Source: Gemmatimonadota bacterium (GTDB lineage Bacteria > JAAXHH01). Taken from it: 64,000 bases of DNA. A model generated the notes under the pieces. It made no database searches, was not told the DNA's origin, and was given only the letters and a program-made list of their open reading frames with translations. Positions within the stretch are counted from its first letter, which is position 1. Each line of letters opens with the position of its first letter. The position numbers and the translations under genes were made by a program. Of this stretch, positions 4,208 through 21,396 are shown piece by piece. The stretch spans positions 1,863 through 65,862 of the forward strand of contig JAPOYX010000026.1 of assembly GCA_026706345.1 (NCBI GenBank), read 5' to 3'.

Positions 4208-4265
4208 GGTGGGGTGATCATGCGAAGGGGATGGCGAGTTAACGAAAGTGCGGTCTTAGAATCAC

Positions 4266-4988
4266 TCAGTAACGCCAATCGTCATGCGCGAGAGGTGCAC
4301 TGTTTAATTCGTCCCGGTACAATCGCCACTGGGGAAGATGTTTGTCCATCAGTTCTCTGAACCGGTCGTTATGCCTGCGCTCGATCAAGTGAACCATTTC
4401 GTGCACGAGGATGTACACCAGGCAGGATGCTGGTTTCTTGGCTAACTCTAGATTCAACCAGATACGTTTCGTCTCGATGTTGCAGGAGCCCCAGAGGGTT
4501 TTCATCCTCTTGATACGGATGTCGTTTACCGTTACACCAATTTTATGTTCCCATTCGGTCTTCAACGCCACCACCTGATTCCGAAGTTGGCGCCGATACC
4601 ACCGGTGCAGTACAGCTTCCCGTGCTTTCCGGTCGGCACTGGGACGGAAGCATAACTCCATCCTCGTATTGTTTAACAGTCGGACACCAGATGGACCATC
4701 GAACTCACTCGCCTGTAGTCGGTAGCGACGACCTCTATAGTAATGACTTTCACCCGACACGAACTCGCGCTGAGACTGTCGGACTTGCTTTTCGAATTCG
4801 GCCTGTTTCTTACGAATCCATGCCAGACGGGAGACAACCGCCGCCCTGACGGCATCGTCATCTAGATGCAACGGTGCGGCCACGCGGACTCTGCCATTCG
4901 GAGGATATACGCCAAGGTGGAGGTTCTTGATGTCCTTGCGGACGATCTCTACCGCTGTTCCACGTACTTCGATGAGGTGACCACTCAA
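4266..4988 (-). CDS. YgjP/SprT-like zinc metallopeptidase (DUF45, M48-related)
   Basis: 240-aa ORF with the HEXXH motif LVYILVHEMVHLIERRHNDRF. It lies 2 bp downstream of hsdR. This family is a frequent neighbour of Type I restriction-modification genes. Confidence 0.75.
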   Translation of the reverse strand: MSGHLIEVRGTAVEIVRKDIKNLHLGVYPPNGRVRVAAPLHLDDDAVRAAVVSRLAWIRKKQAEFEKQVRQSQREFVSGESHYYRGRRYRLQASEFDGPSGVRLLNNTRMELCFRPSADRKAREAVLHRWYRRQLRNQVVALKTEWEHKIGVTVNDIRIKRMKTLWGSCNIETKRIWLNLELAKKPASCLVYILVHEMVHLIERRHNDRFRELMDKHLPQWRLYRDELNSAPLAHDDWRY

Positions 4989-4989
4989 C

Positions 4990-7900
4990 TCAGTATTCGT
5001 CCTGGTGTTTTGCGATTTCGAAAATCGCGTTTACGAGTACGTCGTTGCCGTCGAGTTCCGACCTGATGGCATTACGGATCTTACGTTCCTTCAACGTGTT
5101 GCCCCGCCAATCATCCATTTTCGCAGTCCTTATCGTCTTATCCAATGATAAGGCTTTCGCCTCCGTAACATCCTCGGTCGATTCAAACGGGAAGTCGGGT
5201 GTTTGTTGTGCAACTTTCAGACCCTGAACTCCAACCAGGTTGTCGTATAGAGATCTCAATGCCGAGGTGTTTATGGTCGAAGGATAGGACGCGGAGGTAT
5301 CGGATGCTGGATTGTTTACTTTTTTTGCCAGTTCAACCATCTGAGCCAGGTATTCCTTGTATTCCAGTGCTTCCTGCTTGCGCTGGCGAATCAGATCGTC
5401 CAGCAATCGCGACATTTTCTCATAGTACTTTGGATTGACCGGTGCCTCGTCGATGATCAGTCGACGGACGTTATTCTCAATGGTCGAACTTACGGCTTCT
5501 TTGTCCTCTCGCATGGATTCAGGTAGCGCATCGACTGCGTCTTCACCATCTCTGACGATCAGTTCTACCAGAGTCATATCGTCGAACGTGGAAACCTGCT
5601 CACTTTCCTCTGCCCGGATATAGGTGTCGAGCAGGTGACGCATAGCAGGCTCGAACATCTTCATGTCGACAAAGTCTCCGCTGTTAAGCTTGACGACTTT
5701 CCGAGCTTTCTCGAAATGGTCCACTTCGTTTTTTATCTTCGCCGTCTCTGCCTCGGTGTAGCCGGCTTCCTGCATCTCGTTAGCCAGGTTTGCATATGCA
5801 CGCAGGAAAGCCGCCGTAAGTTTATAGAAAGCAATACGTTTCGGTTCGTTTTCTTTGAGTAGTTCAGCATCACTACTTGTCGAACCACAGAAGTACTTGA
5901 TATACGCGAAAGTATCGCGAGGCGGCTCGACAGGTTCCGTCAGCGCCTTGATCGCCTCCCTTGCTTCCTCCAACCGCTCACGACCTTGCTGGAGTCGGTC
6001 TTTTAGCAAGCCTTTTACATCTTCGGCATCGTACCCATCAAATGCTGCACCGGTGTAATCTTTGATCGACTGTTCCAGGGATTTGAAGAGGTCTTTGTAA
6101 TCGATAATATACCCGTATTCCTTGTCCTCACCGTCAAGACGGTTGACCCGGCAGATCGCCTGGAACAACCCATGGTCCTGCATATGCTTGTCGATGTAGA
6201 GACAGGTCGCGGGAGGCGCATCGAAACCGGTCAGCAGTTTGTCCACCACGATCAAGAGTTTCATCTGTCCGGGACTTTCGATGAAGCGCTTCTTGACTTC
6301 CTGCTCGAATCGGTCGGCCTTTTGCATAGCCGAGTCTTCGGGCTCGTTGAAATGATCCGCGAGCATCTTGCGGTAGACTTTGTACTTGAGCAGTCTCTCC
6401 GTGACTCCTTCGCCGGTCTCCTCCCCTTTGATATCCGCGGTGGCCGGCCGGTAGGAGGTGACGATGGCGCATTTCCCCTCCAGGCCATGGTTCTGAAACA
6501 TCTCATAGATGCGACAGGCAGAGTAGATGCTGTCTGAGACGAGCAAAGCGTTGCCTCGGTCGCTCTTAAGGCGGTCGCGTGTCTCCATGTCCAACAGAAT
6601 GTCCGCCACGATCTTCTCTAAACGATCCTGTGAACTCAACACCCTACGCATCGTGCCCCAGCGTTGCTTGAGCTGGGCCTTCGCCACATCACTCAAACCC
6701 TTGGTCTTGACGTCGAACCACAGATCGACCTTGTCCTGAGAGGTGATGTTCTGGTCTATGTCACGCGCCTCGTAGCGCAGATCCAGTACCACGCCATCGT
6801 TCACCGCTTCGTCGTATTTGTAGGTGTGTATGTAAGGTCCGAAGGTCTCAATACTTCGCCTTTTGTCATCTCTAAGCAACGGAGTGCCGGTAAACCCGAT
6901 CAGCACTGCTTCCGGCAGCAGGGAGGTCATTGCCGCGTGGAGTTTCCCGGACTGGGTGCGGTGACACTCGTCCACGAAGACGAAGATATCGCCCTTTGTG
7001 CGGAAATCGTCGGGAAGGTGTTTCCGGATATCTTCGAGGAACGCGTCGATATCGCCTTCCTCCGACGCGCCGAATTTATGGATCAGAGAGCAAACCAACC
7101 ACTCGTTGGCGGTGTTCAGTACATGCACTAGATCGGCACCGCTCTTGGTTCGATGGATATCCTCACTGACGCCCTTGAAGACCTTCTCAATCTGCTCGTC
7201 CAGTTCGGTGCGGTCGGTGATGATAAGGACGTGCCCGCCGCCGTTTAAGTTCTCACGTATCCACTTCGCCAGCCAGACCATGGTCAGACTTTTTCCACTG
7301 CCCTGGGTGTGCCATATGACGCCTCCTTCGCGCCGGTTCACGCGCTCCTGAGCGGCACGTACGCCGAAGTACTGATTGTGACGACATATCTTTTTATTCC
7401 CCGTGTCGAAGACGATGAAGTCGTGTACGATCTCCAATAGCCGCTTCTTGTCGCAAAGTTGACTGAGTTCCTGGAGCAGTGGATTGTCATCAATGGCGTT
7501 TGAGGGTTCTTGTTCCTTCCAACGCAGCCAGTACTTCTCAGGTGTCTCTATCGCGCCGTAACGAAGTCCTTCCGTCTCGTTACCCGCCATAACCAGTTGT
7601 ACGGTCGTAAAGAACGGACGGATGAACTCCTTCTTCTGGCTGTCCAGATTCTGTCGGATGCCCTCGCTTACCGATACAATAGATCGCTTCAATTCCAGCA
7701 CGCCTATGGCGATGCCGTTGACGTACAGTACAAGATCGGGGCGTCGTGTATGCTCACCGACGACTGTCACCTCTTCGGCGATGGCGAAGTCGTTGTTTTC
7801 GGGATTCTCCCAGTCGATTAGCCAGACAGTAATGGTCTGCTCTCCGACCTCCGGCTGAACTTTTACACCGTAGCGGAGCATTTCATACGTCTCGCGGTTG

Positions 7901-8169
7901 GAATCGTAGAGTGTTCTGCTTCCGCCGAGTGCTGTCGCCTTGCCAAAAGAAAACAGTGTCTTGGCGATAATCCCGTCATCGTGACCTTGGCGCTTGAGCC
8001 AGTCGGTGATCAGACCCTCTTCTATGTTGCCGTTGTCGGGCCGGTCCTTCCAGTTGCCGAGATAGGCGTAGCCGAGCACATCGTCAAATAACGCCACAAC
8101 ACACTGCTGTGTGAGGATCTCCTGTTCGCCGACTTTGCTCATGACTCGGGGTTTCCCGTGTTTTAACAC
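4990..8169 (-). CDS. hsdR: Type I restriction enzyme R subunit (HsdR), SF2 helicase/endonuclease
   Basis: 1059-aa ORF. Motif I is VIWHTQGSGKSLTMVWLAKWI. The DEAH-type motif II is FVFVDECHRTQSGK. The N-terminal region and overall length are HsdR-like. Confidence 0.9.
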   Translation of the reverse strand: MLKHGKPRVMSKVGEQEILTQQCVVALFDDVLGYAYLGNWKDRPDNGNIEEGLITDWLKRQGHDDGIIAKTLFSFGKATALGGSRTLYDSNRETYEMLRYGVKVQPEVGEQTITVWLIDWENPENNDFAIAEEVTVVGEHTRRPDLVLYVNGIAIGVLELKRSIVSVSEGIRQNLDSQKKEFIRPFFTTVQLVMAGNETEGLRYGAIETPEKYWLRWKEQEPSNAIDDNPLLQELSQLCDKKRLLEIVHDFIVFDTGNKKICRHNQYFGVRAAQERVNRREGGVIWHTQGSGKSLTMVWLAKWIRENLNGGGHVLIITDRTELDEQIEKVFKGVSEDIHRTKSGADLVHVLNTANEWLVCSLIHKFGASEEGDIDAFLEDIRKHLPDDFRTKGDIFVFVDECHRTQSGKLHAAMTSLLPEAVLIGFTGTPLLRDDKRRSIETFGPYIHTYKYDEAVNDGVVLDLRYEARDIDQNITSQDKVDLWFDVKTKGLSDVAKAQLKQRWGTMRRVLSSQDRLEKIVADILLDMETRDRLKSDRGNALLVSDSIYSACRIYEMFQNHGLEGKCAIVTSYRPATADIKGEETGEGVTERLLKYKVYRKMLADHFNEPEDSAMQKADRFEQEVKKRFIESPGQMKLLIVVDKLLTGFDAPPATCLYIDKHMQDHGLFQAICRVNRLDGEDKEYGYIIDYKDLFKSLEQSIKDYTGAAFDGYDAEDVKGLLKDRLQQGRERLEEAREAIKALTEPVEPPRDTFAYIKYFCGSTSSDAELLKENEPKRIAFYKLTAAFLRAYANLANEMQEAGYTEAETAKIKNEVDHFEKARKVVKLNSGDFVDMKMFEPAMRHLLDTYIRAEESEQVSTFDDMTLVELIVRDGEDAVDALPESMREDKEAVSSTIENNVRRLIIDEAPVNPKYYEKMSRLLDDLIRQRKQEALEYKEYLAQMVELAKKVNNPASDTSASYPSTINTSALRSLYDNLVGVQGLKVAQQTPDFPFESTEDVTEAKALSLDKTIRTAKMDDWRGNTLKERKIRNAIRSELDGNDVLVNAIFEIAKHQDEY

Positions 8170-8345
8170 GTTACGACGGATTGCCTGTTATCTGTCAGGT
8201 GTTGTATCCTTCAGATGCTGTTCGACTCATACACGGACAGATGATCATGCAGACCGAGGTTCGATCACTTGATACCGCAACGTTCAAAAAGTTCGATGTT
8301 GCGGGTCGCGGATGATGGCGTCGGACAGGTCAGTCAGGCGGCAAT

Positions 8346-8588
8346 TCAATCGAAACTCGGGGGGTCTCGCATCGGTTCTCGGGGTGGTACGTCAAACTCC
8401 ACACCACCCAAAGGAGCAAAGCGAGCACGTATAGCGCGTGCCAAATTGACCGGAGGTATGTCTTCGGTCAGCACCACCTTCAAAATCTCCCGAACTTCCT
8501 CCTCCATTGAGCGGCCATGCTCGGCTGCCCGCATACGCAATCGTTGTTTTAAGTCATCGCTCAAGTTGCGAATCGTAATGCTTGCCAT
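8346..8588 (-). CDS. Ribbon-helix-helix antitoxin (FitA/VapB-like, Arc/MetJ type)
   Basis: 80-aa ORF beginning MASITIRNLSDDLKQRLRMRAAEHGRSMEEEVREILKVVL, which matches the classical FitA/VapB RHH antitoxin N-terminus. No intact PIN toxin ORF follows it. Confidence 0.75.
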   Translation of the reverse strand: MASITIRNLSDDLKQRLRMRAAEHGRSMEEEVREILKVVLTEDIPPVNLARAIRARFAPLGGVEFDVPPREPMRDPPSFD

Positions 8589-8617
8589 TGATTCTCCGTC
8601 TTTTGTAAAGGAGCCTC

Positions 8618-9463
8618 TCAGTGTTCGTTTAGAGTGGCGTTGAGAGACTGCTCTAATTCGTTACCTAGCGATTCAAGCCCCTCTCTGTTTGGAAAATAAT
8701 GGATGTGACGAATCTGTTGAAGATCAAAAGGCACGTCTTCTCTGTTCTGTGTTATGAGAACCGTGTCGCGTCCACGCGCGTGCGCCAGTCCGGCTTCGTA
8801 CAGAACGTTTGGATTCCTTCCGGTCAGATCGCAGATGACCAGCCGACTTTGGACAATATTGTTGAATATGTCGTCGACGATTTTGGTAGGTCCATATATC
8901 TCATCTACGCGCAGGGCAGGATAGCCGACCTTCTCGCAAACAGCTTTGATGATATCATAGACAGGATTGAACTCGTCCTTAAAGGGCATCATGACAGCGA
9001 TTTGTTCTAATCTCGGGAGTGGCCACGTTTTAACGTCGAACAGTTTTGGCAAATCAGGATCGCCACGATCTTTCAATAGCTCGAAAACTTTCGATACCAA
9101 GTTGCCCCTTTTCACAGCCCAGTGAGTTCGCGTGCGTTCCCAATCCTCAGTATCAAACAACTCGCTCCCGAACACTTCTTCCGAACTCAGTCCCTTGGTT
9201 AGATGTTTGTATGAAAACCTGATACTGCGACTTAAAACTCGAACGTCTTCAAGTTGCGTAAAAAAGGCGGGGGTATGGGGTTCACTTGTTGGGCCTGCGA
9301 CCTCCGCTACAACTAAAGCAGGGAGTTCTGAAAGGTCATCCACGTTTTCTCCAAATTCTAGACGTTCCGCAGGAAAAGTAGATGCCCCCGACCAACGTTT
9401 AAAAATATCAGCCGACGGATTCCAAAAACAGATCAGGTTGTAGTAATCAAGCGACCAGTTCAT
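8618..9463 (-). CDS. Two-domain protein with a C-terminal nucleoside 2-deoxyribosyltransferase-like/TIR-like (SLOG superfamily) domain; possible abortive-infection effector
   Basis: 281-aa ORF. The C-terminal region is VMMPFKDEFNPVYDIIKAVCEKVGYPALRVDEIYG...RLVICDLTGRNPNVLYEAGLAHARGRDTVLI. The NPNV-YE-G-A-A-G motif matches the Rossmann-like 2-deoxyribosyltransferase/TIR-like fold. The N-terminal 130 aa are unrecognised. The gene is AT-richer than the flanking DNA. Confidence 0.55.
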   Translation of the reverse strand: MNWSLDYYNLICFWNPSADIFKRWSGASTFPAERLEFGENVDDLSELPALVVAEVAGPTSEPHTPAFFTQLEDVRVLSRSIRFSYKHLTKGLSSEEVFGSELFDTEDWERTRTHWAVKRGNLVSKVFELLKDRGDPDLPKLFDVKTWPLPRLEQIAVMMPFKDEFNPVYDIIKAVCEKVGYPALRVDEIYGPTKIVDDIFNNIVQSRLVICDLTGRNPNVLYEAGLAHARGRDTVLITQNREDVPFDLQQIRHIHYFPNREGLESLGNELEQSLNATLNEH

Positions 9464-9718
9464 AGACAGTCCCTTCCGTCCATCTCTTCAAGCCAAAATC
9501 GGTTTACACTGGATCAAGCAGTGGCACATGGCCTGTAAGGAACTCATGTTTAAAGCCTTGCTAGACAATATGGGGCTTGTCGTGGTATCGGTCCAGCAGA
9601 GCTATCTCGACAGAGGTTTCCGGAGGATAGCGCGGTTATGGCACGTTGACCATCTTACCCATACCAGACTGCGAGAAACCAACTTTGAAGAAGGGTATCA
9701 AGGCTAAGTATTTTGAAG

Positions 9719-10387
9719 TCACGACTCCGTGAACGCCAAGAATGCGTGATGCAATTCTATCGGTGAGTTATTATTCGTTCTCGGATGGAGACTCCCCCAA
9801 ACCCATGGCTCGCTAGTCAGATTTGACGGTCTCAAATTCTCGGCAGAGCGTGACCTGTGGTTCAAGTTGCGGTTGATACCTGCGACAGTGGTTTCAGGGT
9901 TGTCGGCGATCAGGTATCCAACCATGAATACAGCAGAGTGGTTCTCTGAGTACTGCCCGGTTTGGAAACGATCAATGCCGGCGACGACGTACTCACGGCA
10001 CAGGCGAGCATCGCCACCGGAAACCCGCTTGCATTCGATGATTGCGTGTGGGTCGTGCTCGCCGAAGCGGATGATATCGATCCACAGAATCGGAATATCG
10101 ATTCGCCCGTCTGGTACGAATACTTCAGGCCGAGAACGGGATTCGGTTCCGGGCGGAACTGCCATTAACTTGCTCCACGAAAAACGTCCCGAATTCAGCG
10201 CACATCGCATTCCATCGCGTAGCCGTTCCGTGATTTCTACTTCCCCCGCACTCGTACTGAGTTGAGACGACTGTAACGCAAGCGTCCAGCCGGCTTCGAC
10301 AGTACGCAGGATCGCTGTAGCAATTTCAGGCCATAGATTAATGAACCGACGACCGGCGACGACCGTGACATCAAATGGTAACCTCAT
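9719..10387 (-). CDS. Small Mrr-like PD-(D/E)XK (restriction endonuclease fold) protein
   Basis: 222-aa ORF with DIPILWIDIIRFGEHDPHAIIECKRV (D...ExK with the ECKR signature seen in Mrr-type catalytic domains). Its ATG overlaps the stop of the upstream methyltransferase by 4 nt (ATGA), which suggests translational coupling. Confidence 0.6.
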   Translation of the reverse strand: MRLPFDVTVVAGRRFINLWPEIATAILRTVEAGWTLALQSSQLSTSAGEVEITERLRDGMRCALNSGRFSWSKLMAVPPGTESRSRPEVFVPDGRIDIPILWIDIIRFGEHDPHAIIECKRVSGGDARLCREYVVAGIDRFQTGQYSENHSAVFMVGYLIADNPETTVAGINRNLNHRSRSAENLRPSNLTSEPWVWGSLHPRTNNNSPIELHHAFLAFTES

Positions 10388-13329
10388 AAAACGGAACCGG
10401 AGAGACTTTCGGCAATGACCGAATCCGCATCTTCCAAGGCCGATACACCCATCCAGTGCCGCCGGGCGGCAGGCTTGATGATCACAACTTCGTCGCGACC
10501 GTGTACACGAAGCTCGCGCTGGCCGATCAGGTTTGTCGTTAGGGGAACTTCCAAGCGTTCACCGACCCGGTCAATAACGTCTTTCAGGTCTCCACCTGTT
10601 CTAACAGTCTTCAACTCGGGAAGATCCGGGCATTTTGAACGCTCTTCAAGAATGAAGCGAACAACCCGAAGCGGTGCACGTTCCGGAAGTTCAAAGACCT
10701 CGGCGCGCATCCGGCGTTTGTTTGCTACGGAGAGCCAAACACCAATTGCCGCCACGAAATTGTGGGCATAGTCCGAAAGTTGGCTAACGTTTGCGGCTTC
10801 AACAGAAGCGATCCTGCCTGCCTTCCATTGCCAACTTGCACGGGACAGACCATCACGGGCAACGACACGGGCGGCTACGTCCATTTCATATAGGTCGAAT
10901 ACGGCTTCGTCAAGATTCTGCCAATCGGAGACGGAGGGAGAACCTGCCTGCATATCGCAGGCAAGTTGCACCAGGTATCTACCATTCTCGGTGTTCCGGG
11001 CTTTTTTGAGATCGGGAATCGGCATACGTTCGATGTCCCGAAGCTTGATCCGTTGCATCCACAAACCGAAAGTCGATGACGTCATGAGGAAGAACCAAGA
11101 TGCGAGCGACGAACTCAGAATAGTGGCTAGCAGGTGAAGAGTATCTCGCTCCGCGTGTGGAAGGGTCGCACCAAAGAAGGCGTCCGTGAAGATGGTATCT
11201 TGATCAGCAACAGCGGTGACCGGGCGTGGTCCGCGTCTCAGGAACTCCTTGATGAGCAGCAACGGCGCTTTGTAGATGTCGGGATTGCGCGGCCACTGCG
11301 CTTTATCGTCTTCAAACAAGCCCAAATCGGTCGAGACGGAGAACGGTCGAAGGTCGGCCGCTGTCAGGATCGGATGCCCTTGAAGGAAACGCGCAGCGCG
11401 GCTTTTATCTCCGAAAGTCAGCCCGACGTTGAACTCCGTACCGAGCTTGGCAAGCTGGTCTCCAAGCTTCGGATGACTGTCCGTCAGTTTGTCCAACAGG
11501 GACAGATCACGACGGAAACCGACAACCGCAGCCTTCAGGAACTCCGGTTTTCTCTGCCAGTCGGCCAGCGGCAACGTAATGATATCGCTTCTTGCAATCT
11601 CGAACGTGTGGCTTTGCGTTCCGGCCGGAGACCAGGGAACCTGCACCGCGGTGATCGCATCGGGGCGTGAGGGCCGGTGTCTTGCAAAGAGGACAACTGC
11701 GGGCATACTGCTTCTTGGAAACAGCCAATCGGACTGATTCGACAGATTGACCAGCGTCACGGGAGATAATTCTTCAATGATTTGACGCGAGGCGGATGCG
11801 CCGGTTCTGCTCAGACTGAAGAATTGGACCGCACTTAAAATCAGGCCAAATCGCGTATCCTCAGTGGCAAAATCCATCGCTCGAAACACGAAATCCAGAC
11901 TCTCACCACGAGGCGACAGCGCCGTCCTCCCGCTCCCTCGGGCTTGGCGTTCCGATCTGGCCGATTGACCTCGATAGCTCCATGGTGGATTACCGACGAT
12001 AACGTCGAACTTCCGGGAGGCGTCTCTTTCGGTTGGTGCTGACAGTCCATCTGCTAGAACTTTGTCATCCCACGCATCACCGACGAAGAGCGTTTTACCT
12101 ATCAACGGTTCGAACTTCAGCGTCTGAGGAGGATCTGGGTTCGGATCGAGTTCCAGGGCCGCCAGATAGAGACTGAATGCGGCTACGCGCACCGCGGCTT
12201 CGCTGATGTCCACGCCGTAGACCTGTTGGTGTAACGTGGAACGGATCAATTCACGGCTTCGTTCTTCTCTTTTCGATCGAAGATCAACCAGTCGTCGCAA
12301 GGCTTCGACCAGAAAGACGCCGGAACCGCAGGTCAGATCAAGTACGGTTTCTTCTCCAGTGAGTCCTTCCGTGATCTCATCCAGAACAAGAGAGACAAGC
12401 GACAGCCGGGTATAGAAGACATCCTTCCCGGAACGGGTATCGGAAATCGATGGATCTGCATGAGCGAATTGCTCATAGATCGAGCTGATCAACTCTACTG
12501 GTATCACGTCAAACTGGTAAGGAAAGAGCGTCATCTGCCCCGTCTCGGGGTCCATGGCTTCAAGGAAGTCCGCCACCCTTGAGAGATGCTCGGTGTCAGG
12601 CAGAGCATCTCCCTCTTCGGGGAACATGTCGCCATTGAATACCTCTCGAAGCCAATTGAACAATCGAGCTGTGGCTGGAGGATCACGCAGTACGGCGGGA
12701 AAGGACTGATGACCGTAATCCTTCTCAAGATTCTGTTCCGTGACGATCTTTCGATCAATCAGGTACTGAGTAAAAATCGAGCGGCCGATCAGTCCCTGAG
12801 CACCAGAACGGTCCAATCCTATCTTTAGTAGATCGACTTCAAGGGCATAGAGGTCAGACAACAACTTCCGGTCCACGCTGGCACTGCGATCTACGGTATC
12901 TGCCTGTTGCCAGAACCGTCCCGTTTCCATCGCAAGTCGACCGGCGAATGCATCAAGCTCATCCAACTCGTTCTCGATCTTCTGAAACGTACGCAGTCGG
13001 TTAGAGGAAGCGTCTCCGGTCTTCAGAGGTTGAGCAAAACCGTTGTAGAGGTCAATTCTTTGCGGAGAAACCACCCACAGCAGTGGAGAAAATCCCTGAT
13101 TCCATATCTCCCGGCGCCATCGGGCTATCTCCTTTTCGGGCGGAACTTCCGTTTCGCTCTTGAAATAGACGGTGAGCTCCGAGTCGCTACGCCAAAAGGC
13201 GTCAGGCATAAAGTCCCGAGTCTTACACTCGGCATGGGCCTTCTCATCAAGGTACACGCCGGGTGCCGGCTCGCCATTCGCCATGTAGCCGGTGGCTTCA
13301 AGTACTTCGCTTAGGACCTGAGTTGCCAT
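10384..13329 (-). CDS. Large gamma-class N6-adenine DNA methyltransferase (Type IIG/PglX-like architecture: N-terminal domain, HsdM-like MTase core, C-terminal target-recognition-like region)
   Basis: 981-aa ORF. Motif I is VLDLTCGSGVFLVEALRRL and motif IV is FDVIVGNPPWSYRG (the NPPW signature of adenine-N6 MTases). Upstream it has IPVELISSIYEQFAH, the HsdM-like helical motif. About 280 aa before and about 380 aa after the MTase core are not assigned. Confidence 0.8.
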   Translation of the reverse strand: MATQVLSEVLEATGYMANGEPAPGVYLDEKAHAECKTRDFMPDAFWRSDSELTVYFKSETEVPPEKEIARWRREIWNQGFSPLLWVVSPQRIDLYNGFAQPLKTGDASSNRLRTFQKIENELDELDAFAGRLAMETGRFWQQADTVDRSASVDRKLLSDLYALEVDLLKIGLDRSGAQGLIGRSIFTQYLIDRKIVTEQNLEKDYGHQSFPAVLRDPPATARLFNWLREVFNGDMFPEEGDALPDTEHLSRVADFLEAMDPETGQMTLFPYQFDVIPVELISSIYEQFAHADPSISDTRSGKDVFYTRLSLVSLVLDEITEGLTGEETVLDLTCGSGVFLVEALRRLVDLRSKREERSRELIRSTLHQQVYGVDISEAAVRVAAFSLYLAALELDPNPDPPQTLKFEPLIGKTLFVGDAWDDKVLADGLSAPTERDASRKFDVIVGNPPWSYRGQSARSERQARGSGRTALSPRGESLDFVFRAMDFATEDTRFGLILSAVQFFSLSRTGASASRQIIEELSPVTLVNLSNQSDWLFPRSSMPAVVLFARHRPSRPDAITAVQVPWSPAGTQSHTFEIARSDIITLPLADWQRKPEFLKAAVVGFRRDLSLLDKLTDSHPKLGDQLAKLGTEFNVGLTFGDKSRAARFLQGHPILTAADLRPFSVSTDLGLFEDDKAQWPRNPDIYKAPLLLIKEFLRRGPRPVTAVADQDTIFTDAFFGATLPHAERDTLHLLATILSSSLASWFFLMTSSTFGLWMQRIKLRDIERMPIPDLKKARNTENGRYLVQLACDMQAGSPSVSDWQNLDEAVFDLYEMDVAARVVARDGLSRASWQWKAGRIASVEAANVSQLSDYAHNFVAAIGVWLSVANKRRMRAEVFELPERAPLRVVRFILEERSKCPDLPELKTVRTGGDLKDVIDRVGERLEVPLTTNLIGQRELRVHGRDEVVIIKPAARRHWMGVSALEDADSVIAESLSGSVL

Positions 13330-13786
13330 CTTTTGCCTTGCGGGTTTGTATCCTGAATCGAAAAGTCAACCCACGATTACTTATCGTATGTTGAGTTAGT
13401 TCAGTTAATCATTATGTATTTAGTCGTGATTCGATTGTCAATCTCGTATTTCTCCGGCTCTTCAATGTTCACGCGGTTGTTTCAGACTGATTTCGCCGCG
13501 ATGAAACATCGGTCATCGTGATCGGTCTCTTTCGGATCAATATCCAATGCCCATGGCTTTGGCGGTTTTTGTGAGGCGGTTGACACTTTAGTACGCCGGT
13601 GCGAGGCCGGTGTCAAACCACCCCAGAACGGGATATGCGAAGGGGGCGGATAGCTCTCATGCTCGAAGGAATTCAGAAGACGTCAGGTATTCTCTCGCTG
13701 TCGTAGGCCAGACGGTCCGACGCGCCGAATTTGGGACGAGCAGACCAGTCGACCCTGGGAGGAACGTAGAGTAATGGGCGAGTATC
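13330..13786. promoter_or_regulatory. 457-bp AT-rich intergenic region upstream of the large methyltransferase, with an inverted repeat GTTGACAC(n26)GTGTCAAC
   Basis: This is the largest non-coding gap in the restriction-modification island. The inverted repeat ggttgacactt...ggtgtcaaacc lies at about 13575-13625, and no ORF of 60 aa or more is present. It probably carries promoter/operator elements for the methyltransferase and nuclease pair. Confidence 0.35.
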
Positions 13787-17470: not shown

Positions 17471-17567
17471 CTATTTTCCGGTTTATCGGTCCGTAGAGTT
17501 AACCCGGTCAAGGGTGCAGTACTATTGATCCAATCTTTGTAAAGAAGAGCCAACTTGTCATTCCGTC

Positions 17568-18842
17568 CTATTTGGAAGGAGATGCGGGTTTAACAAGCCT
17601 CACTCGACCTGTGAGAAGCTGTTGCATCATGCCCTGCTTGATGGCGCGAGTCTTGTCCCGGTGGCGCTCCAGCACGGCGATCTCGATATCCATATCAGAA
17701 AGAGTGCCAGCAATAGCACGTTGTTCCCGAACTGGCGGTAGCCAGATCTCAAAGTTTCGCATTACATCCCAGTCTGTGCGTGGCATGTGTGTTCCATAGG
17801 AGACACTGGCCGCTTTGATGAATTGGTCGGATTGAATGATGGTATATAGGAAACCGTTGTCTGCCTGCTTCGTATCAGTCACCAGTGGCCATATCTCAGT
17901 CGTGCATATTCCGTCCCGGTCTGCGAGCCAGAACTTTCGAAGATATGAACGAAGTCGGCCAAAGAGCACATCACCAGAATAGAAACGATATTTGGAAGAA
18001 GTTGAGTACTGAGCCGTTGAACACCCCAGTAGCCGCCCCTCGCGTTGCCCGATATGGTCGAGTTCCACACAGGGCGTATCTATTGGTACTTTCGAGGGTA
18101 GTACCTTTTGATTGCGAATGGACGCAATATCCCCTAGTCGTTTTGTCTCCCACTTCCCACTGAATCCCGGCAGCCGAAACTTTCCAGTGAGAAGTTGCTG
18201 CGTGGTAGCTTGTTTGACAGCCTGCTTCTTGTCGATCAGTTCCTCCAACGCCGTGAGTAATCCATCTACATCCGATAACGCCTCAGCGATGGTGCGTTGT
18301 TCAGTAGGAGATGGTAACGGTATGCGCACCTCTCTGAGTGCCTGTTTCGATATTCCAAAGACCTTTAGACCAGTGGCGAGACTACGCAACTGCCTCTTTA
18401 CGGATTCCTTATCCAGAAGGTACCCGCGATAGCCTTCATGGGTGCGTAGGTCCTTTGGTCTCAACAGGAGAGTATGCAGTCCGGCAACTGCTTCAGTAAC
18501 GCCAAGATTTCGAACTTCCACGCTCTTGCCGACCCCGGTTTCGTCCTCAGAAGCATCAGCAACTATCAGATCGCCCTCACGAAGCCGGTTCGCTGTAACG
18601 CCTTTATCAACCGAAAGGCGTGGTAATTTATCGCGAGAGAAGTCGATGAAGTGATGAAAGCGGGTATGGATATCTCCGTAATGCACGTATGCAACGTCAC
18701 CGGTGTCACCGAGTTCGGCCCTCGAATTAGAAGCAGTACGCAGATAGTCAAAAAGATCACCAATGGAATACATGGACCAATCAGACGGTATCACCCCCAC
18801 TTCGGTTCGCTTGTAACCTTTTGGCACCTTATCCGATAGCAC
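17568..18842 (-). CDS. hsdS: Type I restriction-modification specificity subunit (HsdS), two target-recognition domains
   Basis: 424-aa ORF with HsdS-like conserved regions (GDIHTRFHHF, central repeat LLTGKFRLPGF, C-terminal QQLLTGRVRL). It overlaps hsdM by 14 nt. Confidence 0.85.
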   Translation of the reverse strand: MLSDKVPKGYKRTEVGVIPSDWSMYSIGDLFDYLRTASNSRAELGDTGDVAYVHYGDIHTRFHHFIDFSRDKLPRLSVDKGVTANRLREGDLIVADASEDETGVGKSVEVRNLGVTEAVAGLHTLLLRPKDLRTHEGYRGYLLDKESVKRQLRSLATGLKVFGISKQALREVRIPLPSPTEQRTIAEALSDVDGLLTALEELIDKKQAVKQATTQQLLTGKFRLPGFSGKWETKRLGDIASIRNQKVLPSKVPIDTPCVELDHIGQREGRLLGCSTAQYSTSSKYRFYSGDVLFGRLRSYLRKFWLADRDGICTTEIWPLVTDTKQADNGFLYTIIQSDQFIKAASVSYGTHMPRTDWDVMRNFEIWLPPVREQRAIAGTLSDMDIEIAVLERHRDKTRAIKQGMMQQLLTGRVRLVKPASPSK

Positions 18843-21396
18843 GTGACCTCCGAATTTGTCGTACCGTAAGCCCCATCCGCTTCAAGTGCCCCTCGACCTT
18901 CTCGCCGAACGCCTCCACTTCCCGATCCAACTCCGGCAACGGACAGGCATAGCGTTCTTCCAGTTCTGTCACGCGCCCGGTAAGTTGCCGTGTCAACCCT
19001 TGCACCTCATCCTTGACGGCGGCCCGTATACTCGTAAACCACTTGTCCTCGATCACAAGCGTCTTTATCTCAATTTCGGTGAGCATCGTGTACTTCTGGA
19101 TCACCGATGTAAGTAACGTGTCCCGTGTCTGCTTGCATGTATCCTTTTGGACCTTCTCGTCTTCCATGAACTGGAGATAGTCGTAGAGAATATCCAACTC
19201 CTCGAATAGTCCTTCTTCGTCTTGGACGTTCTTGGTCCAATCATGAACGCCAAAGGTTGTTTTCTTGATGGCCTTTACCTGATTGTGCTCCGGCGTTCCT
19301 TCGGAACAACTCTTTAGAATGGCTTCCTTTAACTCGATGACGCGTTGCCGCACATTACCCTTGGTGATACCACTCTTTCCTTCAAGACCGTTGAGAGCGC
19401 CCTCATCGGCACCATGTTCCTCTTCGAATTCCTCCTTACGTTCCGCCAATTCGGAAACTTCCGCCTCAAGTCGCTCCAGTTCTTGCTGTTCGTTCTTGAA
19501 GAATTTCGCAATTAACAAAGTATGCGGGATAAGTTCACCAATGTACTTGGTAGTCTTTTGGCCCTTCTTGATAGTGAACTCCGGAGTTTCCTTGTCATGG
19601 GAGGAACGAAGGTTGCGACCTACCTGCCAGCCTTCCGCGGCGATAAGGTACACATCGTCCTGCATCGTTTCATCCCAATAGTCCATCAACCGTTGGTACA
19701 TGTCGTACGGGTCGAGCAGCGGCAGGTCAGCGAAACGCGCCAGCAGATCCTCTGCCAAGGCGCGAATGAGTTCCCTGGGGTTGGCGCCTGTCTCCAGTCC
19801 TTTCAGAACGGCCTCATGTGTCTTGCACCAATCGTCGAGAACGGCCGCAACCCGGGTCTCGTACGATCTGAATTCCATGTGATCGAGAATGGCGGCCTTC
19901 ACCTGTCCCGTCTCGATGCGACTTTCGCTGTAGCCCTCTCGGCCGTTGCCGACAAACAACGTCCGGCGCAGTGAGGGGAAGACGTCCCAGTAGACACTGA
20001 GCGCGTCGAGGTCGCGGTCCGGGATGCCGCCACGCAAATGGGCGTCGAGATCGTGCAGATCTTCCGGCTCGCTGGAATCGACCCAGCGCGGGATGTTGAG
20101 GTTGTAGTCGTTAGCGGGGCCGACAATCTGGGCGGTCGGAACCATGCGGGAATAACGCGGCAACTTAATCTGTCGGTTAAATACGTCGACGATTCGGTGG
20201 ATGTCCTGTGCGCGCAGGCGGTTCTTGTTGCCGTCCTTGCGGAAGCCCTTGCTCGCGTCGATCATGAAGATGCCGCCGCGCGCATGGGCGTTTTCCTTGT
20301 CTACAACCAGGATGCAGGCGGGGATGCCGGTGCCGTAGAACAGGTTGGGCGGCAGGCCGATGATACCCTTGATGAATCCGCGTTGGATGAGGTTCTTTCG
20401 AATGTCCGCTTCCCGGTTGCCCCGGAACAGTACGCCGTGCGGCAGGATGATCGCCCCCTTGCCCTTGCTGTTGAGCGACGCAATGAGGTGAAGGAGGAAC
20501 GCGTAGTCACCATTCCTGGCAGGTGGGATACCGTAGCCGAAACGTCCGAACTCGTCGTTGGCAGGATCAAGGCCGTTGGACCAGGCCTTGGCGGAAAAAG
20601 GTGGATTGGCAACGGCAAAGTCGAAGGTCTTGAGGCGGTCGTTCTGGTTCTTGAAGTACGGAGCGGCCAGGGTGTTGCCTCGCCAGATTTCGGCGGTCTC
20701 GTGACCATGCAGGATCATGTTCATCCGCGCCAGCGCATAGGTGGCGTTGTCCATCTCTTGGCCATAGACGGTAATGCCATGCGGTGCTTCATCGGCGGCC
20801 CTGAGCAGGAGCGAACCTGAACCGCAGGTCGGGTCGTAGAGGGTCTGATCCTGCCGGGTATCCGGTCCGATGCCGATCACCTGGGCCATGATGCGTGAGA
20901 CCTCGGCCGGCGTGTAGAACTGTCCCTTGCTCTTGCCGGATTCCGTGGCGAAGTGCATCATCAAATACTCGTAGGCGTCGCCGAGGAGATCATCCCCATC
21001 GGCCCGGTTCGCGCCAAAATCGAGACTGTCAAATATGGCGACGAGCCTGGAAAGCCTGTCCTGCATCTCCTTGCCGGACCCCAGCTTGTTTTCGTCGTTG
21101 AAATCCGCCTGATCGATGACGTCTCCAAGATCGTTCGCTTCCGCGAGCGTGGCGATCACCGTGTTTATCTTATCGCCGATCTCTTTATCGCCGACCAGCT
21201 TTACGATATCGGCGAAACTCCCGCCCTCGGGCACTTCGATGAGCATATTCGGATCTTTGGACGCCTTGTCAGAGACGTATTTCATGAACAGCAGCGTAAG
21301 GACATAATCCTTGTACTGAGAGGCATCCATGCCACCACGCAGTTCATCGCAGCTTTGCCAAAGAGAGGAATATAGTTGGGACTTCTTCAGGGCCAT
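18829..21396 (-). CDS. hsdM: Type I restriction-modification methyltransferase subunit (HsdM), with a long C-terminal coiled-coil-like extension
   Basis: 855-aa ORF. It has LGDAYEYLMMHFA, motif I LYDPTCGSGSLLLRA, and motif IV FDFAVANPPFSAKAW (NPPF). The charged C-terminal region ELERLEAEVSELAERKEEFEEEH is unusual in length. Confidence 0.9.
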   Translation of the reverse strand: MALKKSQLYSSLWQSCDELRGGMDASQYKDYVLTLLFMKYVSDKASKDPNMLIEVPEGGSFADIVKLVGDKEIGDKINTVIATLAEANDLGDVIDQADFNDENKLGSGKEMQDRLSRLVAIFDSLDFGANRADGDDLLGDAYEYLMMHFATESGKSKGQFYTPAEVSRIMAQVIGIGPDTRQDQTLYDPTCGSGSLLLRAADEAPHGITVYGQEMDNATYALARMNMILHGHETAEIWRGNTLAAPYFKNQNDRLKTFDFAVANPPFSAKAWSNGLDPANDEFGRFGYGIPPARNGDYAFLLHLIASLNSKGKGAIILPHGVLFRGNREADIRKNLIQRGFIKGIIGLPPNLFYGTGIPACILVVDKENAHARGGIFMIDASKGFRKDGNKNRLRAQDIHRIVDVFNRQIKLPRYSRMVPTAQIVGPANDYNLNIPRWVDSSEPEDLHDLDAHLRGGIPDRDLDALSVYWDVFPSLRRTLFVGNGREGYSESRIETGQVKAAILDHMEFRSYETRVAAVLDDWCKTHEAVLKGLETGANPRELIRALAEDLLARFADLPLLDPYDMYQRLMDYWDETMQDDVYLIAAEGWQVGRNLRSSHDKETPEFTIKKGQKTTKYIGELIPHTLLIAKFFKNEQQELERLEAEVSELAERKEEFEEEHGADEGALNGLEGKSGITKGNVRQRVIELKEAILKSCSEGTPEHNQVKAIKKTTFGVHDWTKNVQDEEGLFEELDILYDYLQFMEDEKVQKDTCKQTRDTLLTSVIQKYTMLTEIEIKTLVIEDKWFTSIRAAVKDEVQGLTRQLTGRVTELEERYACPLPELDREVEAFGEKVEGHLKRMGLTVRQIRRSRAIG

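What the first reader, a model, noticed from the sequence alone, without database searches (positions are those of the whole stretch)
8346..9463. SLOG/2-deoxyribosyltransferase-like protein followed 30 bp later by an RHH antitoxin; candidate reverse-order toxin-antitoxin or abortive-infection pair
The 281-aa protein ends in a domain with the NPNVLYEAGLAHARG motif. That motif marks the TIR-like/nucleoside 2-deoxyribosyltransferase (SLOG) fold used by nucleotide- or NAD-degrading defence effectors. The gene immediately downstream encodes a FitA/VapB-type RHH antitoxin that has no intact PIN toxin after it. The pairing suggests the SLOG protein may be the toxic partner neutralised or regulated by the RHH protein.
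Basis: partly seen in the sequence, partly recalled or inferred. Interest (0 to 1): 0.7.

Follow-up and report, generated by a model that had tools for sequence, protein, structure and literature searches.

The report
Single-gene sensor–TIR-like defence protein, not toxin–antitoxin
The 281-aa gene most likely encodes a self-contained candidate anti-phage protein (a probable modified-base-reader domain fused to a TIR/deoxyribosyltransferase-like enzyme domain) carried as cargo inside a Type I restriction-modification operon, and the small RHH gene after it is the leftover antitoxin of a decayed RHH–PIN module, not its partner.

Summary
Both ORFs are real: a 281-aa protein (8618-9463, minus strand) and an 80-aa FitA-like RHH protein (8346-8588), 29 nt apart.

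**Fold call holds.** The C-terminal half models as a TIR / nucleoside-2-deoxyribosyltransferase / DNPH1-like domain. It also hits a PADLOC TIR-effector model (9e-14).

**Pairing idea fails.**
- The 176 bp after the RHH gene holds the 3' stump of a PIN gene. A relative (L005) has the intact RHH–PIN pair beside hsdR, 4.6 kb away from its copy of the 281-aa gene.
- RHH is a pseudogene in two close relatives and absent in a third, yet the 281-aa gene is intact in all three.
- No RHH was found next to 22 distant genomic homologs or 3 plasmid homologs.

**Context.** At least 20 of 33 homolog loci lie beside R-M, BREX, Druantia-like or other defence genes.

**Best reading.** A one-protein sensor–effector defence module, probably an N-glycosidase acting on NAD+ or nucleotides. 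It is an untested new variant of a known kind.

The parts
8618..9463 (-). 281-aa two-domain protein: N-terminal PUA-like module, linker, C-terminal TIR/NDT-like module. Candidate single-gene defence protein.
   Evidence: ORF. 496 full-length-type homologs, with no Pfam match and no source name. dN/dS 0.20-0.26 against L001/L002. AF2 pLDDT 84.5 with two domains and a disordered linker at residues 137-147.
9059..9463 (-). N-terminal domain (aa 1-135): beta-barrel-like module with conserved N9, R34, P48, E54, E109 and T113-H114-W115-A116-x-K118-x-G120. Predicted ligand or nucleic-acid sensor.
8621..9016 (-). C-terminal domain (aa 150-281): TIR / nucleoside 2-deoxyribosyltransferase-like flavodoxin-type fold. 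Predicted N-glycosidase effector.
   Evidence: Foldseek PDB hits: SARM1, RUN1, RPS4, TIR-STING and SPARTA TIR domains, NDT (8pqt), DNPH1 (8rpt, 4kxm), with TM normalised to target 0.5-0.72. PADLOC PDLC00733 'Effector/TIR' 9e-14 over aa 163-257. Relatives carry AbiJ_NTD5, or reach the Pfam Nuc_deoxyrib_tr gathering score.
8771..8815 (-). Motif NPNVLYEAGLAHARG (aa 217-231). The invariant E223 is the candidate catalytic glutamate.
   Evidence: Invariant columns in the 42-sequence alignment. The motif lies at the start of the helix after strand 208-212. This is the position of the Glu nucleophile in NDT (established knowledge; residue equivalence was not verified by superposition).
8346..8588 (-). 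80-aa FitA/VapB-type RHH protein: orphan antitoxin of a decayed RHH-PIN module.
   Evidence: Pfam PF22513 6.9e-21. The ortholog in L005 is followed by an intact PIN. dN/dS is 0.17 against L002 and 0.16 against L005, so it is still under purifying selection.
8170..8345 (-). Remnant of the PIN toxin gene after an internal deletion of roughly 250-330 bp. The C-terminal stump 'ATRNIELFERCGIK*' lies at 8265-8309.
   Evidence: Translations. tblastn of the L005 PIN gives E 0.001 for the window and 3e-7 for L001 (13/18 identical). The spacer is collinear in the window, L001 and L002.
4990..8169 (-). Context: hsdR of the Type I R-M operon that hosts the cargo genes.
   Evidence: Pfam HSDR_N, SWI2_SNF2 and T1R_D3. 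PADLOC REase_I E=0.
17568..21396 (-). Context: hsdM (18829-21396) and hsdS (17568-18842). The hsdS-hsdR gap (8170-17567) holds the cargo cassettes.
   Evidence: Pfam and PADLOC. Cassette order differs in L001-L005.

Best explanation
The 281-aa gene is a self-contained, one-polypeptide candidate anti-phage module. It sits as horizontally acquired cargo in the variable hsdS-hsdR gap of a Type I restriction-modification operon.

The N-terminal ~135 residues form a PUA-like (YTH/EVE-like) barrel that I infer to be the sensor. Most likely it binds a modified nucleobase, nucleotide or nucleic acid that appears during infection. The C-terminal ~130 residues form a TIR / nucleoside-2-deoxyribosyltransferase-like domain that I infer to be the effector. 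I expect it to be an N-glycosidase using invariant E223, and to deplete NAD+ or nucleotides once the sensor is engaged, probably through ligand-driven oligomerisation as in other TIR effectors. That would abort the infection.

The adjacent RHH gene is not part of this module. It is the surviving antitoxin of an RHH-PIN (FitAB/VapBC-type) pair whose toxin gene was deleted.

Shown: the domain folds, the modular fusions, the variable defence-rich neighbourhoods, the decay of the PIN, and the independence from RHH. Inferred: the ligand, the substrate, the activation mode and the anti-phage phenotype.
For: - **Architecture.** Two confidently modelled domains.
- **C-domain.** Foldseek hits TIR, NDT and DNPH1 structures at E 5e-5 to 1e-3. 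It hits the PADLOC TIR effector model at 9e-14. It has a weak Cap12 TIR-STING sequence match over the NVLYE motif.
- **Modularity typical of conflict systems.** The same N-module is fused to TIR_2 (L051, L053, L056), to FRG (L052, L059) and to CAP12/Pycsar TIR PF10137 (P0127, P0138, P0163). The same C-module is fused to AbiJ_NTD5 at 2.7e-29. That architecture was already predicted to be an Abi sensor plus toxin (PMC3710099).
- **No conserved partner gene** across 33 loci. Plasmid copies are stand-alone.
- **Defence context.** 16 of 33 loci have Type I, IIG or BREX-like methylase systems within 10 kb. In several the gene is embedded directly after hsdS, after the methylase or after hsdR. Other loci lie next to a DpdF/GajB-like helicase, DruE, a IIG R-M enzyme or PDC-M23B.
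- **Horizontal acquisition.** The island has low GC, 43-56% against 60-68% in the flanks.
- **Selection.** The gene is under purifying selection, dN/dS about 0.2.
- **Precedent.** A PUA-like sensor that binds m6-dAMP drives an effector filament. That PUA-like family is also seen fused to TIR and embedded in N6A-methylase R-M operons (bioRxiv 10.64898/2026.01.15.699771).
- **RHH independence.**
Against: - No experiment exists on any member of this family.
- No Pfam, NCBIfam or dedicated PADLOC family covers the protein.
- I could not inspect the model coordinates for an aromatic cage.
- The substrate (NAD+, nucleotides or DNA) is unknown.
- 13 of 33 loci showed no recognised defence neighbour with the limited query panel used.
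- TIRL-RHH adjacency does recur in the four closest loci (window, L001, L002, L003). The window RHH is still under purifying selection, so a local regulatory link cannot be fully excluded.
Confidence: 0.6

Rival explanations
1. One reading: the 281-aa protein is a toxin, and the downstream RHH protein is its cognate antitoxin or repressor (a reverse-order type II toxin-antitoxin or Abi pair).
For: The two genes are 29 nt apart on the same strand. The adjacency is kept in L001, L002 and L003. The window RHH has a good Shine-Dalgarno sequence and dN/dS 0.16-0.17. TIR-like domains can be toxic.
Against: RHH is followed by a PIN stump, and in L005 by an intact PIN 4.6 kb from the homolog. RHH is pseudogenised in L001 and L003 and absent in L004, while the 281-aa gene is intact in all three. 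There is no RHH next to 22 distant homologs or 3 plasmid homologs. No conserved neighbour exists.
Confidence: 0.05
2. Direct-acting 'restriction glycosidase'. The PUA-like domain recognises a modified base in phage DNA, or a phage-specific modified nucleotide such as hm-dCMP or hm-dUMP. The NDT/DNPH1-like domain then cleaves that base's glycosidic bond. The result is non-abortive, modification-dependent immunity rather than NAD+ depletion.
For: DNPH1 and NDT, which cleave (modified) deoxynucleotide glycosidic bonds, are among the best structural matches, with TM to target up to 0.72. The N-domain resembles readers used by modification-dependent restriction enzymes (VcaM4I, McrB N-domains, PD-T4-3). 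Anantharaman et al. proposed that NDT-like Abi domains act on DNA (PMC3710099). Embedding in R-M operons would complement them against modified phages, as shown for TgvAB (PMC11411939).
Against: The same N-module is fused to canonical TIR_2 and PF10137 TIR domains and to FRG. That pattern fits a generic sensor that triggers interchangeable effectors better than a substrate-binding subdomain does. The best sequence-level match is to a TIR effector model. There is no biochemical evidence.
Confidence: 0.15
3. Signal-generating TIR. The protein produces a nucleotide-derived second messenger, as ThsB does, for an effector encoded elsewhere.
For: Bacterial TIR domains can make cADPR isomers or His-ADPR signals (papers listed). 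The fold is TIR-like.
Against: No conserved partner or effector gene occurs in 33 loci. Plasmid copies are isolated genes. The domain is closer to the NDT/CAP12-type effector TIRs.
Confidence: 0.05
4. Housekeeping or non-defence enzyme, for example nucleotide salvage or sanitation by an NDT/DNPH1-like hydrolase, that happens to sit in a mobile island.
For: NDT and DNPH1 are metabolic enzymes with the same fold. 13 of 33 loci had no recognised defence neighbour.
Against: The gene has a patchy distribution across many phyla and plasmids. It is inserted inside R-M and BREX operons. It shares domain shuffling with TIR_2, FRG and AbiJ_NTD5. The C-domain occurs in prophages. The island has low GC.
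Confidence: 0.07

Closest known systems
PUA-like sensor fused to effector systems (PUA-Cal-HAD and its PUA-TIR/HEPN/HNH relatives; bioRxiv 10.64898/2026.01.15.699771)
   Same: An N-terminal PUA-like sensor is fused to an interchangeable effector. Members are embedded in R-M operons with N6-adenine methylases. TIR is listed among the fused effectors. The proven logic is modified-nucleotide (m6-dAMP) binding, then filament formation, then metabolite depletion.
   Different: That PUA-like family is defined by the motifs VWWGWWxKxxExxP and TPxYY. The present N-domain has no WWGWW motif and instead has the signature RTHWA[VI]KxG[DN]. Here the effector is NDT/TIR-like with no HAD partner, and no member has been tested.
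TIR-like NADase single-protein defences (DUF4062 Swarozyc/Evangelion; CAP12 TIR-STING and Pycsar PycTIR effectors, PF10137)
   Same: They have a flavodoxin-type TIR-like fold with a catalytic Glu, and they act as abortive effectors that deplete NAD+ when a sensor domain is engaged. The PADLOC TIR effector model hits the C-domain at 9e-14. The same N-module is found fused to PF10137.
   Different: The C-domain does not reach Pfam thresholds for DUF4062, TIR_2 or PF10137. The sensor is a PUA-like barrel rather than STING, SAVED or a portal-binding region.
AbiJ-NTD-type Abi proteins (N-terminal sensor plus C-terminal TIR or nucleoside 2-deoxyribosyltransferase toxin; Anantharaman et al. 2013, PMC3710099)
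   Same: The same C-domain family is fused to AbiJ_NTD5 in L035, L037, L038, L039 and L041. The predicted logic is the same: the N-terminal domain senses a phage component and the C-terminal enzyme acts as the toxin.
   Different: The N-terminal module here is unrelated to the mostly helical AbiJ N-terminal domains.
Modification-dependent (Type IV) restriction enzymes with PUA-like readers (VcaM4I/TspA15I, McrB N-domains, PD-T4-3) and EVE/DCD proteins in Type I R-M operons (PMC6765204, PMC7641849)
   Same: They have a PUA-like reader fold. EVE and DCD proteins are frequently associated with hsdRMS operons.
   Different: Their effector is a nuclease or GTPase rather than a TIR/NDT-like N-glycosidase. 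EVE-TIR fusions are not mentioned in the EVE survey.
FitAB/VapBC type II toxin-antitoxin modules
   Same: The 80-aa protein is a bona fide FitA-like RHH, and its ortholog in L005 precedes an intact PIN.
   Different: In the window the PIN toxin is reduced to a stump of about 45 nt, so only an orphan antitoxin remains.

Membership tests
Type II toxin-antitoxin pair formed by the 281-aa protein and RHH | Toxin and antitoxin genes co-occur and co-evolve as a conserved two-gene unit across homologs | tested here: not met
   RHH lies next to the homolog only in L001-L003. It is dead in L001 and L003, absent in L004, and 4.6 kb away with its own PIN in L005. None was found in 22 distant loci or 3 plasmids.
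Type II toxin-antitoxin pair formed by the 281-aa protein and RHH | The toxin is lethal or static alone and is neutralised by the antitoxin | not testable with these tools
   Needs expression experiments.
FitAB/VapBC (RHH-PIN) module | RHH antitoxin matching the family HMM | tested here: met
   PF22513, 74.4 bits against a cutoff of 27.
FitAB/VapBC (RHH-PIN) module | Intact PIN toxin gene immediately downstream | tested here: not met
   Only 176 bp remain, carrying a C-terminal PIN stump. The PIN is intact only in L005.
TIR domain superfamily | Flavodoxin-like three-layer alpha/beta fold superposable on TIR structures | tested here: met
   Foldseek hits to SARM1, RUN1, RPS4, MAL, TIR-STING and SPARTA TIR domains, prob 1.0, TM to target 0.5-0.7.
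TIR domain superfamily | Match to a TIR family HMM above its threshold (PF01582, PF13676, PF10137, PF13271) | tested here: not met
   No Pfam TIR family at E<=1. Only the PADLOC TIR effector model hits, at 9e-14.
TIR domain superfamily | Catalytic glutamate and NAD+ glycohydrolase activity | tested here: inconclusive
   Invariant E223 lies in NVLYE. It aligns to the NVVFE segment of Cap12, but only at E 0.7. Activity is not testable here.
Nucleoside 2-deoxyribosyltransferase family (PF05014) | HMM match at or above the gathering score | tested here: not met
   12.2 bits against 28.8 for this protein. A C-domain relative, L047, reaches 29.1 bits.
Nucleoside 2-deoxyribosyltransferase family (PF05014) | NDT/DNPH1-like fold with the Glu nucleophile after strand 4 | tested here: inconclusive
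   Fold matches to 8pqt, 8rpt, 4kxm and 7o62. E223 sits at the start of the helix after strand 208-212. No residue-level superposition was available.
SLOG superfamily (LOG, DprA, YpsA and relatives) | Closest structural or sequence relatives are SLOG members | tested here: not met
   No LOG or DprA structures among the top 50 Foldseek hits. No SLOG Pfam family hit.
PUA-like modified-base readers (EVE/YTH/ASCH) | PUA-like beta-barrel fold | tested here: met
PUA-like modified-base readers (EVE/YTH/ASCH) | Sequence membership (Pfam EVE, YTH or ASCH HMM) and an aromatic cage that binds a modified base | tested here: not met
   No Pfam hit at E<=1 and no PDB sequence hit. Cage geometry could not be inspected and ligand binding is not testable here.
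PUA-like family of the PUA-Cal-HAD system | Motif II VWWGWWxKxxExxP and motif V TPxYY | tested here: not met
   No WWGWW motif in the 19- or 42-sequence alignments. Only a loose 'TPAFF' is present.

The most novel reading that the evidence does not exclude
The family is a modification-sensing abortive-infection or 'restriction glycosidase' protein. A previously unnamed PUA-like domain reads a modified nucleobase. The base could be hypermodified phage DNA, or a methylome-derived nucleotide such as m6-dAMP released when phage degrades the host chromosome marked by the neighbouring N6A methylases. Binding switches on a TIR/NDT-like N-glycosidase that either collapses NAD+ or nucleotide pools, or directly removes the modified bases. 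If so, a large untested family directly links R-M methylation marks to TIR-type immunity. The two-domain architecture fills roughly two-thirds of the top 150 of 859 50%-identity clusters with E<=1e-30.
Probability: 0.3. Interest if true: 0.7.

Novelty: new variant of a known kind. Interest (0 to 1): 0.45.

Why it matters
If confirmed, this would add a widespread, compact (~290 aa) single-gene immune module. It occurs in Verrucomicrobiota, Acidobacteriota, Chloroflexota, Gemmatimonadota, Binatia and Proteobacteria, and on Serratia and Agrobacterium plasmids.

It would define a new PUA-like sensor domain that is swapped between TIR_2, CAP12-type TIR, NDT-like and FRG effectors.

It would give a second, independent example of R-M-embedded sensors that may read nucleobase modification to trigger metabolite depletion.

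It also shows that an RHH gene adjacent to a putative toxin can be a relic of a different, decayed toxin-antitoxin module. That is a useful caution for automated 'toxin plus antitoxin' calls in defence islands.

Tried and rejected
- **Reverse-order toxin-antitoxin pair:** rejected on comparative genomics.
- **SLOG membership:** not supported by the fold hits.
- **Named family in Pfam or NCBIfam for the 281-aa protein:** none found. PADLOC gave only the generic TIR effector model.
- **Sequence-profile search of PDB:** the full-length profile gave only E>0.3 hits, including Cap12. The N-domain profile gave nothing meaningful.
- **Conserved neighbour search** by all-against-all clustering of ORFs from 34 loci: no universal partner.
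- **Promoter and terminator scan of 8000-10500:** no sigma-70-like site, and one terminator-like hairpin inside hsdR, below the number expected by chance. The transcription unit therefore remains undefined.
- **tRNA and Rfam scans of the window:** nothing found, so there is no island-boundary tRNA or riboswitch.
- **AFDB fold search:** the library was unavailable.
- **N-domain profile search**: it returned only proteins of 261 aa or shorter, so architecture frequencies from it are incomplete.
- **Same PUA-like family as PUA-Cal-HAD:** considered, but the motifs do not match.
Full report
**1. Observation**

The two ORFs exist exactly as described. The 281-aa ORF lies at 8618-9463 and the 80-aa ORF at 8346-8588, both on the minus strand. 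They are 29 nt apart, with a GGAG eight bases before the second ATG.

The 80-aa protein is a clear FitA-like ribbon-helix-helix protein (Pfam PF22513, 6.9e-21).

The motif NPNVLYEAGLAHARG occupies residues 217-231. Its core (N217, N219, V220, L221, Y222, E223, G225, A227, H228, A229) is invariant in an alignment of 42 homologs that go down to 49% identity.

By sequence the 281-aa protein belongs to no curated family:
- Pfam gives only a sub-threshold Nuc_deoxyrib_tr match (E 0.21).
- NCBIfam gives nothing.
- PADLOC gives one hit, model PDLC00733 ('Effector', TIR), at 9e-14 over residues 163-257.

**2. Genomic setting**

All genes from 1.5 to 21.4 kb are on the minus strand and form a Type I R-M operon with cargo. 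In order they are:

| Coordinates | Gene |
|---|---|
| 18829-21396 | hsdM |
| 17568-18842 | hsdS |
| 13787-17470 | Upx-like protein (PADLOC 2e-153) |
| 10384-13329 | IIG-like N6A methylase |
| 9719-10387 | overlapping 222-aa ORF |
| 8618-9463 | the 281-aa gene |
| 8346-8588 | RHH |
| 4990-8169 | hsdR |
| 4266-4988 | YgjP-like peptidase |
| 1562-4207 | PD-(D/E)XK protein |

The island has 43-56% GC against 60-68% in the flanking genes. Defence systems embedded inside Type I R-M clusters are a known phenomenon, for example TgvAB in Vibrio cholerae (PMC11411939).

**3. The RHH gene is the relic of an RHH-PIN module**

Only 176 bp separate RHH from hsdR. Translating that stretch shows 'ATRNIELFERCGIK*'.

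In the related locus L005 the orthologous RHH (76% identical) is followed by an intact 139-aa PIN gene (Pfam PIN 1.7e-14). That PIN ends '...ATRNVGDFEHCRIEVINPWSV'. A tblastn of this PIN against the spacers recovers the stump in the window (E 0.001), in L002 (7e-4) and in L001 (13/18 identical, 3e-7). The three spacers are collinear, so they share one ancestral internal deletion of the toxin gene.

In L005 the RHH-PIN pair sits directly upstream of hsdR. Its copy of the 281-aa gene lies 4.6 kb away, directly after hsdS and separated by the IIG cassette.

**4. The 281-aa gene does not need RHH**

State of the close relatives:

| Locus | Identity of 281-aa homolog | RHH state |
|---|---|---|
| L001 | 92% | ATG changed to ATA, plus in-frame TAA at codon 74 |
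| L003 | 73% | stop at codon 3 |
| L004 | 66% | none; the gene abuts hsdR |

The 281-aa gene is intact in all three. It is under purifying selection in the two pairs tested, window–L001 and window–L002 (dN/dS 0.20-0.26).

Twenty-two full-length homologs at 41-54% identity come from Binatia, Terriglobia, Dehalococcoidia, Vicinamibacterales, Gemmatimonadota and Pseudomonadales. Among them:
- None has an RHH hit.
- Ten small downstream ORFs scanned against Pfam gave only one Gp49/HigB-like protein and one HTH protein.
- Clustering of all neighbouring ORFs found no conserved partner.

Full-length homologs on Serratia marcescens, Agrobacterium tumefaciens and Arsenophonus plasmids are isolated 'hypothetical protein' genes next to integrase or partition genes.

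One caveat remains. The window RHH is still under purifying selection after PIN loss (dN/dS 0.17 against L002). It probably retains some function, such as an orphan antitoxin or a local repressor.

**5. What the 281-aa protein is**

AlphaFold2 with the 42-sequence alignment gives a two-domain model (pLDDT 84.5) with a disordered linker at residues 137-147.

*C-terminal domain (about residues 150-281).* Foldseek against the PDB matches TIR domains (SARM1, RUN1, RPS4, MAL, TIR-STING, SPARTA). It also matches nucleoside 2'-deoxyribosyltransferases and DNPH1. E-values run from 5e-5 to about 3e-3, and TM normalised to target reaches 0.72. No SLOG (LOG or DprA) structure appears in the top 50, so 'TIR/NDT-like' is the accurate label. 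The invariant E223 sits at the start of the helix that follows strand 208-212, the position of the Glu nucleophile in NDT. This equivalence is inferred and was not verified by superposition.

- YTH domains (YTHDC2 at 7.4, Mmi1, YTHDF1, YTHDC1, CPSF30)
- the modification-dependent endonuclease VcaM4I
- two McrB N-terminal domains
- ASCH

Foldseek agrees only weakly. The top hit is the YTHDF3-m6A RNA complex at E 0.011, prob 0.91, and no hit has E<=1e-3. There is no sequence-level match. I therefore treat the PUA-like fold as moderately supported, and membership of EVE or YTH proper as not shown.

**6. Domain shuffling**

The N-module has the signature MFNLL...R..EYT...LP.L...E...RTHWA[VI]KxG[DN]. 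It occurs at the N-terminus of proteins whose C-terminal part is one of the following:
- TIR_2 (L051, L053, L056; E 2e-17 to 5e-11)
- FRG (L052, L059)
- a large helical repeat region (L061)
- CAP12/Pycsar-type TIR PF10137 (P0127, P0138, P0163)

The C-module (MMPF...RVDEIY...NPNVLYETGIAH) is in turn fused to AbiJ_NTD5 (2.7e-29) and to other N-terminal regions, or to transmembrane tails. The relative in L047 just reaches the Pfam Nuc_deoxyrib_tr gathering score, 29.1 against 28.8 bits.

AbiJ-NTD5-TIR and AbiJ-NTD1-NDT architectures were predicted in 2013 to be abortive-infection proteins in which the N-terminal domain senses a phage component and the C-terminal enzyme is the toxin (PMC3710099).

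A profile search of 1.84 billion cluster representatives finds 27,752 clusters at E<=1e-3 and 859 at E<=1e-30. The ~275-300-aa two-domain architecture makes up roughly two-thirds of the top 150. C-domain-only homologs occur in temperate phages of Streptococcus, Staphylococcus, Klebsiella and Enterococcus.

**7. Neighbourhoods**

Sixteen of 33 full-length loci carry Type I, IIG-like or BREX-like methylase systems within 10 kb. In several loci the gene sits inside the operon:
- directly after hsdS (L005-L008)
- directly after hsdR (L015)
- between a BREX-type methylase and PglZ (L012, L013, L029)

Four more loci have large neighbours that match other defence models: a DpdF/GajB-like helicase (L010), DruE (L016), a IIG R-M/DrmMI enzyme (L018) and PDC-M23B/HamB-like (L020). 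That gives at least 20 of 33 loci with recognised defence genes nearby. This is a lower bound, because only a small query panel was used.

**8. Mechanism proposed**

The protein is a one-polypeptide sensor-effector. The PUA-like N-domain binds an infection-associated ligand, most plausibly a modified nucleobase, nucleotide or nucleic acid. That binding activates the TIR/NDT-like N-glycosidase domain, probably through oligomerisation, to deplete NAD+ or nucleotides.

The closest experimentally grounded precedent is the PUA-Cal-HAD system. Its PUA-like sensor binds m6-dAMP released from the Dam-methylated chromosome and assembles an effector filament. Its authors also note PUA-like fusions to TIR, HEPN, DrHyd, HNH and McrB, and embedding in N6A-methylase R-M operons (bioRxiv 10.64898/2026.01.15.699771). 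The present N-domain lacks that family's WWGWW motif, so it appears to be a different PUA-like family used in the same way.

TIR-like single-protein NADase defences (DUF4062/Swarozyc) are the closest effector analogues.

The main rival is direct glycosidic cleavage of modified nucleotides or DNA (DNPH1-like chemistry). It cannot be excluded.

Everything about ligand, substrate, activation and phenotype is inference. The folds, the fusions, the contexts and the independence from RHH are shown.

**9. Verdict**

The fold call is right, apart from the 'SLOG' label. The toxin-antitoxin pairing is wrong.

The locus holds an uncharacterised but widespread candidate defence gene with a new sensor domain, next to the wreck of an RHH-PIN module. 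I rate it a new variant of a known kind, of moderate interest. Cultivable plasmid-borne homologs are available for testing.

Noticed in passing
window 8170-17567: The hsdS-hsdR gap behaves as a cassette-swapping site. The window has Upx, IIG methylase plus 222-aa ORF, the 281-aa gene and RHH. L001 has KwaA/KwaB (Kiwa) in place of Upx. L005 has the 281-aa gene first and RHH-PIN last. L004 lacks the full-length IIG cassette (only a ~108-aa fragment is detected) and lacks RHH.
   Followed up: partly
window 9719-13329 (-): A 981-aa IIG-like N6A methylase (PADLOC REase_MTase_IIG 6e-54; N6_Mtase, Eco57I, MmeI_Mtase, weak TaqI_C) overlaps by 4 nt a 222-aa ORF that has no family hit but carries a 'D...IIECKR' PD-(D/E)XK-like motif. 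The two move together as a unit in L001, L002, L003 and L005. This may be a split methylase/nuclease restriction system.
   Followed up: partly
window 13787-17470 (-): A 1227-aa protein with no Pfam domain matches the PADLOC model 'Upx' at 2e-153. It lies in the lowest-GC segment of the island (43-46%).
   Followed up: no
window 8346-8588 (-) and orthologs in L002 and L005: The orphan RHH antitoxin stays under purifying selection (dN/dS 0.16-0.17) long after loss of its PIN toxin (dS 0.52 to L002). It is pseudogenised in L001 and L003. It may act as an anti-addiction factor or a local repressor.
   Followed up: partly
window 9464-9718: A 255-bp spacer upstream of the 281-aa gene is kept at a similar length in L001 and L002. 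It has no sigma-70-like promoter match and contains a 59-aa plus-strand ORF (9528-9707) of unknown significance.
   Followed up: no
window 1562-4988 (-): A YgjP-like metallopeptidase and an 881-aa PD-(D/E)XK (PDDEXK_1) protein follow hsdR. In the relatives L001 and L002 a UvrD-type helicase comes next. The peptidase and PD-(D/E)XK genes are conserved in L001, L002 and L005 (L005 ends before the helicase position). This may be a fixed accessory block of this R-M island.
   Followed up: no
L052, L057, L059, L060 (ORFs at ~9.6-11.4 kb of each locus): The same N-terminal PUA-like module is fused to FRG domains in Rhizobium, Devosia, Duganella and Sphingomonas. In L061 it is fused to a ~450-aa helical region with weak squalene-cyclase-like repeats. 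The function of FRG in this context is unknown.
   Followed up: partly
L006 7594-8251 and 11051-11383; L007 and L008 equivalents: HigA-like (dnstrm_HI1420) and Gp49/HigB-like toxin-antitoxin genes flank the hsdS plus 281-aa-homolog pair in Binatia loci. Toxin-antitoxin modules of different families recurrently sit inside these R-M operons.
   Followed up: no
L063 (Serratia marcescens UMH7 plasmid), L064 (Agrobacterium tumefaciens pAtLMG292b), L065 (Arsenophonus paPb4, two copies): Full-length homologs (31-38% identity) occur on plasmids of cultivable bacteria. They are annotated as hypothetical proteins and sit next to integrases or partition genes. They are convenient for experiments.
   Followed up: partly
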